A stretch of 63,207 nucleotides of DNA, counting the filler, from Collodictyon triciliatum (lineage: Eukaryota), in the NCBI GenBank assembly GCA_043381765.1. It is 15 parts of 15 records of this genome, joined end to end, with 100 filler letters (N's around TTAATTAATTAA, not from the genome) between each part and the next. Parts side by side here need not be neighbours in the genome. Positions count along the whole stretch, not along the records: positions 30,613 to 34,882 come from JBHJMP010006296.1; 14 more parts are not named here. The stretch is one strand, 5' to 3'. Position 1 is the first letter of the stretch; every line of letters starts with the position of its first letter. Below the pieces are notes generated by a model, which was not told the origin of the DNA, did not search any database, and saw only the letters and a list, made by a program, of their open reading frames with translations. Of the stretch, positions 30,613 to 34,793 are shown in pieces. A program made the position numbers and the translations under genes.

Positions 30613-32010
30613 ATTTCAAATGCGATTTTCTCCCCAACCATACGTCCCACAGACACGCCAACCATATCTCGTTGATGTACACGCGAAGGCGCATCAGAAA
30701 ATATATTCACCAAAATTTCAAAAAAAAGTGTCATTTCTAACCCATATACATCCATGCAACACCCACAAGACAACACACCCACCCCAACATACTGCAGTAA
30801 CTATCACGAACGAAGTGAGTGTGCGTAATATGTGTTCATGACATTCCACAAGGCAAGAAATACTCTTAACATTGCTTTTCCATCCTGTCAACAAGCATGG
30901 TTGTCATTGCACAAGATATATTCCACATAAAGAAACAGCATCTCAAATGCGATTTTCTCCCCAAATACGCATCACACAGGCATGCAAACCATATCTCGTT
31001 GATGTACACCCTAAGGCGCATCAGAAAATATATTCACAAAAATTTCAAAAAAAAATGTCATTTTCACTCCATATACATACTGTATACTAGTCACTCACTA
31101 AACATACCTCAGAAATCATCATGAACGAAGTGAGGGTGCGTCACATCAATCAAAACCATTCATGAGGAAAGAAAATACCCACAACACTGCAATTCCACTT
31201 TGTCAACAAGCAGTAATGCAACTGCACAAGATATATTCCACATAAAGAAAATGTACATTCTAACCCGATTTTCTTCCCAACCACGCATCACACAGACACG
31301 CAAACCATATCTCGATGATGTACACACCAAGGCGCATCTGAAAACGTATTCACAAAAATTCCAAAAAAATATGTCATTTTCGCTTCATATACATGCTGTA
31401 TACGAATCACTCATCCAACATACTGCAGAAACTATCACGAACGAAGTGAGGGGGCGTTATATGTGTTCATGACATCCCACAAGACAAGAAATATTCTTAA
31501 CATTGCAATTCCATCATGCAATCAACAAGGGGTTTGATTGCACAAGAAATGTTCCACATAAAGAAACTGAACATTCAAATGCGATTTTCTCCCAAACCAT
31601 ACGTCTCACAGACACACAAACCATATCATGTTAATACAAACGCTGAGATGCATTAGACGATGTAATCAGAAGAACAAGAAACCACTTCTTTTCAGTCTTG
31701 AAAATCTCAACTTTTGGGTTAGAATTCTGTACATGCAGTAATATCTCCTTCACAAACATTGATGATAAATATGCAACCCCATCATCCTGTGTATTGTACG
31801 ACATGTACAATGTCCAAAAAAAACCATCCTCAAATCACCGTCACATCAGCCACGTCAACAAGGCTTGAAGTTGTAAACATTGAAAAACATATAGGAAAAT
31901 CAAACTTTAAACCCGATTTTCTCATTCACTATAAGGAATTGGTCATCAAGCAATAGCACATTGCTAGTCTACTTTTGAAAGAGCTATCAGAAAATATGTA
32001 TATGTCACAA
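30613..32010. repeat. Diverged tandem array of ~316-bp units (about 4 units, decaying toward the recombinase gene)
   Basis: CGAAGTGAG occurs at 30811, 31126 and 31442. TGCACAAGA(T/A)AT(A/G)TTCCACATAAAGAAA occurs at 30908, 31223 and 31539. CGATTTTCT occurs at ~30623, 30950, 31266, 31582 and 31914. Confidence 0.9.
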
Positions 32011-32553
32011 CCTCAAAAGTCACCCCCCACCCCCCTTCCATCAAAAAATGACTACAGGGGAAATTTTCAAACGCGTTTTTCTCGTGATCTGTCCGTTACT
32101 TTTTGATCATTCTTGATCCATCAGTGATCATTTTCAAGGGGCTATCCGGACATGTCAAAAGTTTTGAAATCCGATGATTATTCATTCCCCCCTTTTTTTC
32201 CATCACGTATAGAGGCCTGCAGCCAGTACAGCCCTTACCTATCCATATCCGGTGCGATGTGATCCACATTTGGGTTGGAGCGTGGATTCCGCATTTGGGT
32301 TGTGAACAACTCGACCCAAATGTACATAGCACAGGCCGAGATGATGGACCTATATAGGTGTAGCAAACCATTGTATTGTAAGAGGCTCAGCCTCACCGGA
32401 CATCTGCATATACGTATTCGCTCGAAGTATCATACCATATATATCCATGTGTACATAAATGAAATGCATATATACCCCATTGCCTAAACAAGCATGTTTA
32501 CTAACCCAAACCCCCCCCTAAATATCTCTCCTCTACCCTAACTCTAACCTCAG

Positions 32554-34413
32554 ATGGATCAAGAATGCGAGTTCTGCAAGTCCAGATTCGTAAGCTCCGC
32601 AGTGGATGCCTTCTGCTCTGCAGATTGCCGCATCCGCCCGTCAGGTGCTGCCCCACAAGAGAGCTCTTTGTTGGCCGCAAAGAGATTCTCGACAAGGGCA
32701 GAAGCTGTCCTGGATCTATTGACGCGAGATGACCTTGCTCAATACATATCGGCTGGACCAAAGTACTCTGAATCAACCCTGCGAAAGCATGGATGGGTTG
32801 AGAAGCTGTACGATGGATTCTGTCGAACATACGAGGTGCAACCGTGGCCCTTATCCACAGACGTTGCACCAGGATTTATCCGATTTCTCGGAATCGGAGT
32901 TGGATATCGCGTCAATAGCATCCAGGACGTTATCTGTCCTAGCCTGAAAAGGTTGCAAGTCATCAAAGGCTATGATCCTGTCAGCCACGAAATCTCTGAA
33001 CAGATGGTCAGGGCTGTCAAGGATATCAAAAATACCAAGAGCAAGGCTGTCAGGCAAATGGGGAAGCAGCCAGCCATCCAAGATGATGTCATCCGAATCA
33101 TCAGCCTCACCCCCGACGGCCTGCCCACAAAGGCATTGGAGGCGAGTCTGTGGCTGGTGGCGGTCAATACCGGGGCACGCGCCATAACATGCGCAGCTGT
33201 CACGCTTGCTGACATCACTCAGGCGTACAGGTTGCCCAATAAGTCGGACGAGAACTGGTGGTTGGTTCACATCCGATACAGGGTGACAAAGGGGATTCCC
33301 GATTGGAACCATGAAGTGACCTTGGAAGGTCGACTGGATGCAAGATCGGATGCAAACACCATCTACTGGTTGAACAAACACCTCCAGTCGGAGTTTGGGT
33401 TGGGGCTGGATAAGTTCAAGGAATGGAATCTCTCCAAAGAGATGGCTGACAGGCCTCTCTGGAAGGATAGCAAGGACGTTCTTCGAGAGATGTTCAAGAA
33501 GAGGGCAAGGTCTGCCGGGTATCCAGATGGGATGTTTGGGTTCCATAGCCTCCGATCCGGATTCATCTGCTCGGCCCTCGTCAGGGCTGGAACCGATCAG
33601 AATGCTGTCAAGTCAATCTTGGAGAATACCGCGTTCGTTGCAGGTTGGGTCCCCAACAAACCAGCTCAGCTGAGGTACGTCAAGGAATGTACCAAGCGCA
33701 CCATCGTGGCCAGTCGCCTGGGTGCACAAGAGAGCGAGGTCTACAGCAACATGCCTGTGGAGAAAACGTTGACGACACCGGAAGCCTTCCACTCTATCAC
33801 GCTGGAGACCAGCCAATGGCCTGATGACACCAACTACATGAGCTTCCAGAAGACTGTGGACCAATATATCCAGCAATGCATGGACATCCTGCCCGAAAAG
33901 TCCACAAGGCCAGACAACCTCAAGATCAAGCTGTGGACACATGCCTTCAATAGGTTCGCTGAGGCCATCCCAGAGGTCATGGAAGCCTCACAGGCCAGGT
34001 TAGAAAGCGAGAACGAAAGAGAAGTCAGAGAGGGCAAGCGAAAGTCCACCCTGACCCACGCCTGCAGGTATGTTGGGAGACAATACTTGGTGGAGAAGCT
34101 GAAGCAAGAGTATGGAGGATTGGAGACTTATGTCGAGATGTTCAAGGAGTACGTGGCTGAGGATATCCAGACTGAAGACATAACAAAGAGCTACGCAAAG
34201 AAACAGAAGACCGCCCATGTCTACACCCGCCCAGTCTTGCACACCACCAAGCACCGAAAGCGAATCGCCTGGACCCCTGAAGAGGATGCCCTCCTGAGAC
34301 AGGGTGTGGATGAAGGTAAGACTTGGGTACAGATCGCTGGTACCCTGACCATCAACGAGAGGACCAATGTGGACTGCAAGGACCGTTGGAGAAACCTGGC
34401 CAAGAAGCGCTAG
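32554..34413 (+). CDS. Tyrosine recombinase (Crypton/DIRS-like YR domain) with an N-terminal CxxC..FCSxxC zinc motif and a C-terminal telobox-type Myb/SANT domain
   Basis: Uninterrupted 619-aa ORF. Catalytic residues: NTGAR (R209), VTKG (K246), FHSLRSG (H331, R334), AGW (W365), QLRYV (Y375). C-terminus: RKRIAWTPEEDALLRQGV..W..I..RTNVDCKDRWRNL. Confidence 0.9.
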   Translation: MDQECEFCKSRFVSSAVDAFCSADCRIRPSGAAPQESSLLAAKRFSTRAEAVLDLLTRDDLAQYISAGPKYSESTLRKHGWVEKLYDGFCRTYEVQPWPLSTDVAPGFIRFLGIGVGYRVNSIQDVICPSLKRLQVIKGYDPVSHEISEQMVRAVKDIKNTKSKAVRQMGKQPAIQDDVIRIISLTPDGLPTKALEASLWLVAVNTGARAITCAAVTLADITQAYRLPNKSDENWWLVHIRYRVTKGIPDWNHEVTLEGRLDARSDANTIYWLNKHLQSEFGLGLDKFKEWNLSKEMADRPLWKDSKDVLREMFKKRARSAGYPDGMFGFHSLRSGFICSALVRAGTDQNAVKSILENTAFVAGWVPNKPAQLRYVKECTKRTIVASRLGAQESEVYSNMPVEKTLTTPEAFHSITLETSQWPDDTNYMSFQKTVDQYIQQCMDILPEKSTRPDNLKIKLWTHAFNRFAEAIPEVMEASQARLESENEREVREGKRKSTLTHACRYVGRQYLVEKLKQEYGGLETYVEMFKEYVAEDIQTEDITKSYAKKQKTAHVYTRPVLHTTKHRKRIAWTPEEDALLRQGVDEGKTWVQIAGTLTINERTNVDCKDRWRNLAKKR

Positions 34414-34629
34414 GGTTGGCCGGTGAGGACATCCGCAGGATACAGCAAGACTGCCTGAAGGAACAAAGTGGAATAAACACACCCACCCCCCACCCCCCTC
34501 CCCACACACACACACACACACTTAACCCTGTCATAAAGACCCGACAGTCTTTGTCACACAGACTTTATTTTTTAAAAAAAAAACAAAGTCATTGACAAAG
34601 ACAAAGACAAAGACGAAGACAAAGACAAA

Positions 34630-34793
34630 TACTGTAGTAACTCGCACGAACGAAGTGAGTGTGCGGAACATCAATCAAAATCATTCATGAGGAAAGAAAA
34701 TACCGCACAAGATTGCGATTCCACTTTGTCAACATGCATAGATGTGATTGCACAAGATATATTCCACATAAAGAAATAGTACATTCTAATACC
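34630..34793. repeat. Partial copy of the ~316-bp unit downstream of the recombinase, in direct orientation
   Basis: ACGAACGAAGTGAGTGTGCG..CATCAATCAAAA..CATGAGGAAAGAAAATACC..TGCACAAGATATATTCCACATAAAGAAA..GTACATTCTAA matches ~31105-31263. Confidence 0.9.

What the first reader, a model, noticed from the sequence alone, without database searches (positions are those of the whole stretch)
30613..34793. ~316-bp repeat on both sides of the recombinase: alternating A/B array upstream, A/B hybrid downstream
Seen: conserved anchors recur 315-316 bp apart (CGAAGTGAG at 30811/31126/31442; TGCACAAGA..TTCCACATAAAGAAA at 30908/31223/31539). Units 1 and 3 share an A-type segment (TATGTGTTCATGACAT..CACAAG.CAAGAAATA.TCTTAACATTGC), whereas unit 2 has a B-type segment (CATCAATCAAAACCATTCATGAGGAAAGAAAATACC). 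The copy after the YR gene (34630-34793) starts A-like (ACTGTAGTAACT..ACGAACGAAGTGAGTGTGCG) and continues B-like, so it looks recombinant near the CGAAGTGAG motif. The array decays toward the YR gene. Inference: either the YR element integrates site-specifically into this satellite, or the repeats are its own recombination substrates (excision/circularisation, or a cassette-like array shuffled by its adjacent recombinase).
Basis: partly seen in the sequence, partly recalled or inferred. Interest (0 to 1): 0.8.

Follow-up and report, generated by a model that had tools for sequence, protein, structure and literature searches.

The report
Telomere-reading recombinase transposon in a satellite
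The 316-letter repeats are a rare, ordinary-looking satellite, but the gene they surround looks like a small jumping element whose DNA-cutting enzyme carries a telomere-reading domain and whose relatives sit at telomere-type repeats.

Summary
The repeats are real at the stated coordinates, but the proposed role is not supported. The finding spans one 4.27-kb contig of a concatenated window. The 316-bp unit occurs on only 3 contigs; one holds 8 units and no recombinase. Across 14 units, sequence switch points are not enriched at CGAAGTGAG, and the downstream copy is an ordinary unit type cut off by another repeat, not an A/B hybrid.

The gene is the interesting part: an intact Cre-fold tyrosine recombinase (YR) with a TRF1-like Myb domain, from a multi-copy protist family. 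18 of 29 related loci carry telomere-type runs (7 of 12 independent groups): TTAGGG in standard-code loci, TTGGGG in TAA/TAG-sense loci, where diverged copies stack head-to-tail through those runs. A family-like end site lies at 32292-32322.

Best reading (0.6): a Crypton-like, YR-only element that targets telomere-type repeats, long resident in a telomere-motif-rich satellite. Nine paper searches found no description; Repbase was not searchable. The scan noted a YR plus telomere-type Myb architecture before in another genome (e1-7365929).

The parts
30613..34882 (.). Whole contig C6296 (4270 bp); both ends are assembly breaks. First 70 nt identical to C5887:1760-1829, last 97 nt identical to C5887:10-106
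30617..30943 (+). 316-bp satellite unit 1 (327 bp; 96% to C5887 unit 1)
30944..31259 (+). Satellite unit 2 (92% to C5887 unit 3)
31260..31575 (+). Satellite unit 3 (first half like C5887 unit 4, second half A-type)
31576..31907 (+). Decayed unit 4 (first third clear, rest faint)
31908..32018 (+). Start of a further, strongly decayed unit (weak: 3 of 100 shuffles score as well)
32292..32322 (+). Candidate left end of the YR element: 9-bp inverted arms with a GGGTT/ACCC core around a 13-nt spacer holding CAACTCG; a second GGGTTG lies at 32272
32554..34413 (+). 619-aa ORF: N-terminal Cys cluster, Cre-fold YR (about residues 67-397; R209 K246 H331 R334 W365 Y375), helical linker, C-terminal Myb
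34267..34398 (+). TRF1-like Myb domain (residues 572-615)
34413..34418 (+). GGGTTG at the stop codon: candidate right core, a 6-bp direct repeat of the left core (noticed post hoc, untested)
34498..34593 (+). Possible decayed first half of the downstream unit, in register with it (weak: 3 of 100 shuffles)
34579..34629 (+). (AAAGAC)n microsatellite, 8.5 copies
34629..34789 (+). Downstream second half of a satellite unit, closest to C5887 unit 6 (88%); ends at the CTAA of the unit boundary
34786..34882 (+). First 97 nt of an unrelated multi-kb dispersed repeat that begins sharply at CTAATAC (matches on about 20 contigs)

Best explanation
The gene is the recombinase of a small Crypton-like (YR-only) DNA element that recognises telomere-type repeats. 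Shown: Cre-like fold with a full catalytic set; a C-terminal Myb closest to TRF1; family members joined to short TTAGGG or TTGGGG runs through a recurring left end; a family-like end site 230 bp upstream of this ORF. Inferred: the Myb binds GGGTT-type motifs, the YR excises the element as a circle and recombines its GGGTT core with a host telomere-type repeat, so that copies stack head-to-tail. The 316-bp repeat is a separate low-copy satellite in a telomere-motif-rich compound repeat (subtelomere-like, inferred). This copy has sat inside the satellite long enough for the neighbouring units to decay on both sides. The patchwork of the units comes from ordinary homologous exchange, not from the YR.
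For: Fold: Cre best by Foldseek (E 2.9e-7) and VIA-align (Z 16.0, rmsd 4.5, 280 aligned); R209, K246, H331, R334, W365 (column invariant) and Y375 invariant in 26 sequences. Myb: best single-domain score among the five alignments shown is human TRF1, 32.1 bits against 27.5 for MYB21 and 18.5 for c-Myb, with the RTxVxxKDRWR helix shared. Family: 47 proteins, 8 of them named Monocercomonoides exilis proteins, one from Diphylleia rotans. Telomere runs of 11 nt or more in 18 of 29 loci against 0.28 in shuffles; by my grouping 7 of 12 independent groups among the 25 strong loci. TTGGGG in 11 of 12 TAA/TAG-sense records, TTAGGG in 7 of 13 standard-code records, never crossed. One conserved right end joins about six different left ends through (TTGGGG)2-5 at 9 junctions. 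L051 closes on itself at 3412 bp with one degenerate telomere site. A profile of 7 family left ends ranks 32295 first in the window (23.8, next independent site 15.7; 184 kb of control at most 16.5; 0 of 300 shuffles). Switch points are not at the motif. TAACCC/GGGTTA: 18 in C5887 (4.2 kb) and 15 in C11504 (1.3 kb) against 13 in the other 57.7 kb of the window.
Against: No perfect telomere run lies in this contig, and the host's telomere repeat is not established: three TTAGGG units in a row occur on 3 contigs only, (GGGATT)n is common but lies in both orientations. The window site has a 13-nt spacer where several family sites have 18 between the GGGT and ACCC cores, and the profile's spacer freedom and bonus were set after I had seen the site. 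No empty site was found: the array and C5887 diverge after unit 3 with 700 bp found nowhere else, and no joint skipping the gene appeared in four thinly covering runs. Only one intact copy was found in this genome (12 candidates scored). Five of 12 groups lack a perfect run, and shuffles are a weak control because eukaryotic DNA holds telomere motifs anyway. By the family profile c-Myb and MYB21 outscore TRF1. All TTGGGG records may be one host population.
Confidence: 0.6

Rival explanations
1. The satellite is cargo inside a larger (about 5.9 kb) YR unit that is circular or tandem. The contig's end leads through the first 1.8 kb of C5887 back to its start, the true junction is a (TTAGGG)n site like the one on C11504, and C5887 and C11504 are YR-less relatives. 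The two 'flanks' are then two parts of one element.
For: Contig start identical to C5887:1760 onward for 70 nt and contig end identical to C5887:10-106 for 97 nt, a 97-mer held by only 2 of the other 19 loci checked. C11504 has four TTAGGG units followed by an inverted AACCCTA with the family's spacing, and C5887 has an N gap at the matching place. The family forms a closed 3.4-kb unit and 3.2-kb tandem arrays.
Against: The path is only inferred from short contig overlaps; C5887 begins with 9 different letters before the shared 97-mer, and C8435 holds the same 97-mer. No related locus carries a satellite of this size. A family-like end site already lies next to the ORF. The family left-end profile scores the C11504 site only 11.6.
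Confidence: 0.2
2. The gene is a stranded or domesticated YR-Myb that no longer moves, and its position beside the satellite is a historical accident of a repeat-rich region.
For: Single intact copy, no second copy of its upstream region; the genome's other family member on C1100 keeps a long ORF but has D for the H of the HxxR motif and no visible catalytic Y, so immobilisation happens here; flanking units are decayed.
Against: All six catalytic positions are intact and an end-like site is retained; relatives are multi-copy and arrayed.
Confidence: 0.13
3. One reading: the YR recombines the 316-bp units at the CGAAGTGAG motif, integrating into the satellite or shuffling it like cassettes.
For: The repeat is rare and the intact YR single, yet they share a contig. 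The 21-nt motif is the best-kept part of the unit (0.94 pairwise identity) and several recognisable array edges lie near it. Unit order, with C5887 units 1, 3, 4 before the gene and a unit-6 type after it, looks like an interrupted array.
Against: Switch points are spread along the unit; another bin is nearly as conserved (0.93); the motif has no Watson-Crick dyad (z 0.32); faint unit remains extend beyond the motif at some edges; no such repeat at 29 related loci.
Confidence: 0.07

Closest known systems
Crypton DNA transposons (CryptonF/S/A/I; Kojima and Jurka 2011, PMC3212892, Background section and passages read; active CryptonF in PMC9977147, passages read)
   Same: YR is the only enzyme; no long terminal repeats; short direct-repeat cores at the ends; circular intermediate proposed; CryptonF also carries a C-terminal DNA-binding domain.
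   Different: The C-terminal domain here is a TRF1-like Myb, not GCR1_C ('Myb' does not occur in PMC3212892); no Pfam DUF3504 or GCR1_C match in 26 members; the cores are telomere-type runs and copies stack in arrays.
CryptonV (microsatellite-specific Cryptons; one sentence in PMC8869645 citing a Repbase Report)
   Same: YR DNA transposon with target specificity for simple repeats.
   Different: Described from cnidarians; I could not read the Repbase Report or compare sequences, so a link is untested.
Telomere-inserting endogenous nimaviruses (PMC10871703, abstract and passages read)
   Same: A YR family associated with specific insertion into the host telomere repeat; concatemers or episomes joined through telomere tracts.
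   Different: Large viruses with many genes; YR with zinc-binding and SAM-like domains and no Myb mentioned; the units here are 2-3.5 kb with one gene.
Telomere-specific retrotransposons such as HeT-A/TART, SART/TRAS (recalled; TRAS1 appears only in a reference list)
   Same: Head-to-tail stacking at telomere repeats.
   Different: They use reverse transcriptase; no second long ORF was seen in the closed unit L051.
Integron cassette arrays (IntI, attC) (recalled; structure 2a3v is a lower fold match)
   Same: YR beside an array of related repeats.
   Different: The units hold no cassettes between sites, have no attC-like dyad and show no site-specific switch points.

Membership tests
Tyrosine recombinase superfamily | Core-binding plus catalytic fold | tested here: met
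   Cre Z 16.0, rmsd 4.5, 280 aligned; Foldseek E 2.9e-7; Phage_integrase in 7 of 26 members
Tyrosine recombinase superfamily | R-K-H-R-H/W-Y catalytic residues | tested here: met
   R209 K246 H331 R334 W365 Y375 invariant in 26 sequences; their catalytic assignment is by motif order, from established knowledge
Crypton | YR is the only enzyme encoded (no RT, no DDE) | tested here: met
   One long ORF in the contig; only the YR ORF of 140 aa or more in the closed unit L051
Crypton | Short (4-6 bp) terminal direct repeats, no TIRs | tested here: inconclusive
   GGGTTG at 32297 and 34413, post hoc, no empty site to confirm; relatives join through telomere-type runs
Crypton | Mobility: several copies, empty sites or circles | tested here: inconclusive
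   One intact copy here; family multi-copy in M. exilis and arrayed or closed in metagenome records
Crypton (named groups F, A, I, S, V) | YR groups with a named clade or carries its marker domain (GCR1_C, DUF3504) | tested here: inconclusive
   No such Pfam match at E 0.1 in 26 members; Ndc10 only Z 8.2; no tree with Repbase sequences was possible
DIRS/Ngaro/VIPER YR retrotransposons | Reverse transcriptase and RNase H in the element | tested here: not met
   No such ORF in the contig or in L051
TRF-type (telobox) Myb | Single Myb repeat with the VxxKDRWR recognition helix | tested here: met
   Alignment to TRF1, 32.1 bits; 46% identity to 1w0t in the structural match
TRF-type (telobox) Myb | Binds double-stranded telomere repeats | not testable with these tools
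   Needs a binding assay
Integron-like cassette array | Exchange points fixed at a recombination site in each unit | tested here: not met
   3.2 of 59 and 1.9 of 41 switch points in the motif, 3.56 and 2.5 expected

The most novel reading that the evidence does not exclude
A widespread, undescribed protist family of 2-3.5 kb DNA transposons in which one protein both reads the host telomere repeat (TRF-like Myb) and recombines into it (YR). The target tracks the host's repeat (TTAGGG or TTGGGG), and copies build head-to-tail arrays: a DNA-only counterpart of telomere-specific retrotransposons. In the boldest form this copy is a 5.9-kb circle or tandem unit that carries its own satellite.
Probability: 0.45. 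Interest if true: 0.75.

Novelty: new variant of a known kind. Interest (0 to 1): 0.55.

Why it matters
Target-specific DNA transposons are rare in eukaryotes, and for the known telomere-inserting YR elements the way the target is read is not explained in the passages I saw. Here the targeting domain is visible in the protein, and the repeat type changes between host groups along with the Myb helix, so the mechanism can be tested directly with a binding assay and a two-plasmid recombination assay. If it holds, it adds a DNA-only route to telomere-associated arrays in protists and a natural telomere-repeat-specific recombinase. The 316-bp satellite itself is ordinary.

Tried and rejected
Hybrid and cassette shuffling: rejected. 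A hairpin with sheared G-A pairs in the conserved motif (my idea, from recalled ssDNA motifs): standard folding gives nothing (z 0.32), and the pattern was found once, unrelated, in 21 loci scanned; left open. Structured RNA or rDNA spacer: Rfam found only one tRNA (L055) in 20 loci; I did not search the genome for rDNA. Viral origin: no relative in viral contigs and no motif match. Host telomere repeat: TTAGGG, GGGATT and TTTGGG searches were inconclusive, and no YR remains lie beside the loci they returned. The dispersed repeat starting at 34786 as a non-autonomous partner of this YR: no free right end found; all 9 matches of the sequence that precedes it are followed by it. Decayed unit halves at three C5887 edges and the C11504 edge: not above shuffles (37 to 88 of 100). 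Public runs: no RNA holder listed; the high depth at 34474-34759 is the microsatellite. Protein atlas gave only unnamed or phage-integrase clusters. The scan's notes held no look-alike by sequence. Paper searches without a description of this family. A fold without a named Crypton relative is not evidence of absence.
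Full report
Setting. The window is 15 unrelated pieces joined by 100-nt N/TTAATTAATTAA spacers. The finding is exactly one of them, contig C6296 (30613-34882), of a 75.4-Mb assembly in 14,576 contigs. Its neighbours in the window are therefore not biological neighbours, and both ends of the finding are assembly breaks.

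The observation. The array has period 316 and 77% matches. Units start at 30617, 30944, 31260 and 31576; the fourth is decayed and a fifth is barely visible. The downstream copy covers the second half of a unit, 34629-34789. It stops where a different repeat begins at CTAATAC; that repeat matched about 20 contigs with a sharp common start and extends for several kb in other copies. In one public run a 222-nt contig resembling the downstream copy continues into a normal next unit instead (record 14), so this unit type also occurs inside uninterrupted arrays.

The repeat in the genome. DNA and pattern searches found it on three contigs: C6296, C5887 (seven full units, one partial, one lone motif, no YR) and C11504 (two half units) (counts are lower bounds). 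Window units 1, 2 and the first half of 3 correspond to C5887 units 1, 3 and 4; the downstream copy is closest to unit 6. C5887 and C11504 also hold other short-repeat blocks and are rich in telomere hexamers: 18 in 4.2 kb and 15 in 1.3 kb against 13 in the other 57.7 kb of the window and 28 in 76 kb of other contigs. C11504 is one of three contigs with three TTAGGG units in a row. I infer a subtelomere-like compound repeat; its chromosomal place is unknown.

Test of the shuffling idea. A copying model over all 14 aligned units (decayed unit 4 left out) gave 59 switch points, 3.2 of them in the 21-column motif against 3.56 expected; with a stricter switch cost 1.9 of 41 against 2.5. The downstream copy equals C5887 unit 6 at 21 of 21 motif positions and 52 of 55 after it; before the motif only 18 positions align, and they match most units better than unit 2. 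So there is no A/B hybrid and no fixed crossover point.

The protein. 32554-34413 encodes 619 aa. Pfam sees only the Myb, but the model (pLDDT 83) matches Cre best, and R209, K246, H331, R334, W365 and Y375 are invariant in 26 aligned sequences. The Myb aligns best, per domain, to human TRF1 and shares its recognition helix; with the family profile c-Myb and MYB21 score higher. Relatives number 47 in one search and 337 at E 1e-10 among 50% representatives; named ones come from Monocercomonoides exilis (8 rows) and Diphylleia rotans. The genome's only other match (C1100, 31%) lacks the H and apparently the Y.

What relatives sit in. One metagenome scan gave 29 loci. None carries the 316-bp repeat or a tandem period above 108 bp. 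Eighteen of 29 carry a perfect telomere-type run of 11 nt or more, 17 of 12 nt or more; shuffles give 0.28 and 0.03. Many records overlap: setting aside the four weak hits (none with a run) and merging overlapping records by hand leaves 12 groups, 7 with a run (6 at 12 nt). Twelve records have in-frame TAA/TAG but no TGA, and L058 opens under table 6; 11 of them carry TTGGGG, a repeat I recall from ciliates, and none TTAGGG. Of the 13 standard-code records 7 carry TTAGGG and none TTGGGG. In the TTGGGG set, diverged copies lie head-to-tail about 3.2 kb apart, and one conserved right end is joined to about six different left ends through two to five repeats at 9 junctions. L049/L050 has three TTAGGG upstream and a 118-nt tract ending the contig downstream; L051 closes on itself. 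Left ends share GGGTT, then CAAC about 8 nt on, often followed by an inverted AACCC.

The ends of this copy. A profile from 7 such left ends ranks 32295 first in the whole window and above all controls; the site is a 9-bp inverted repeat around CAACTCG (folding z -2.47). The caveats are a shorter spacer than in the family and a profile shaped after I saw the site. GGGTTG recurs at the stop codon, which would make a 2.1-kb element with 6-bp direct repeats, as described for Cryptons (PMC3212892, Background); this right end is a guess, since relatives have longer 3' regions. No empty site is known: 31660-32600 is unique in the assembly, and four public runs cover the stretch too thinly to show one. 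Those runs do hold short identical or near-identical pieces of the gene (X1) and of the array and spacer (X4), which shows presence only.

A rival that stays open. The contig's first 70 nt and last 97 nt are identical to the two ends of C5887:10-1829, and only C5887 and C8435 among 19 other loci hold that 97-mer. This allows a cycle of about 5.9 kb. C11504, a diverged relative of that spacer, has four TTAGGG units with an inverted AACCCTA at the family's spacing. If so, the satellite rides inside the element. Either way the YR would act at telomere-type sites, not at the 316-bp unit.

Comparison with what is known. It works like a Crypton (YR only, short cores, circles) and like telomere-inserting nimaviruses (PMC10871703, abstract and passages); CryptonV is reported to target microsatellites (PMC8869645, one sentence); Crypton integration through a short shared core has been observed (PMC9977147, passages). 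Membership of a named Crypton group could not be shown. Nine searches found no paper describing a YR-Myb telomere element; Repbase Reports, subscription papers and supplements were not seen and may hold a name for it. An earlier scan note reports a YR fused to a telomere-type Myb in another genome; it is an unchecked AI note and did not come up by sequence.

Verdict. Observation partly confirmed, interpretation partly supported. The satellite is ordinary; the gene most likely belongs to an undescribed telomere-repeat-targeting variant of YR-only transposons. Interest 0.55.

Noticed in passing
G000:C2752 (L114:568-6303, minus strand): 1911-aa ORF with DEAD and Helicase_C domains and, by eye, a YR-like stretch before them; it ends about 800 bp before a copy of the dispersed repeat that starts at window 34786. 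Resembles telomere-linked RecQ helicase elements (recalled).
   Followed up: partly
G000:C1100 (L080:7494-9833, minus strand): Second YR-Myb family member with a long open frame but apparently lacking catalytic H and Y; candidate domesticated copy.
   Followed up: partly
L015:1588-1681 (C5887): Two TAGGGTT...AACCCTA inverted sites with 23-nt spacers just before the array (folding z -4.48); possible Myb or YR sites.
   Followed up: partly
G000 genome-wide: (GGGATT)n is common (630 overlapping matches of five units) while (TTAGGG)5 matched once; telomere identity unresolved.
   Followed up: partly
L112 / G000:C9190:2020-2054: Six TTAGGG units beside a reverse-strand reading frame that looks by eye like an integrase; not tested.
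   Followed up: no
L057-L073 (12 records): Myb recognition helix differs (RTKxMVRERAR in L058) in the TTGGGG-linked, TAA/TAG-sense copies, a possible specificity switch.
   Followed up: partly
window 30805-30821 and each unit: The conserved motif can be drawn as a stem with two G-A steps and a GNA loop, and the C5887 lone motif and C11504 change only the loop's middle base; meaning unknown.
   Followed up: partly
window 18661-19921 and 8697-9236: NHL-repeat-like ORF with a related stretch on another contig of the window; other pieces hold sulfotransferase-like (13250-14705) and BTB-like (44672-45346) frames, judged by eye.
   Followed up: no
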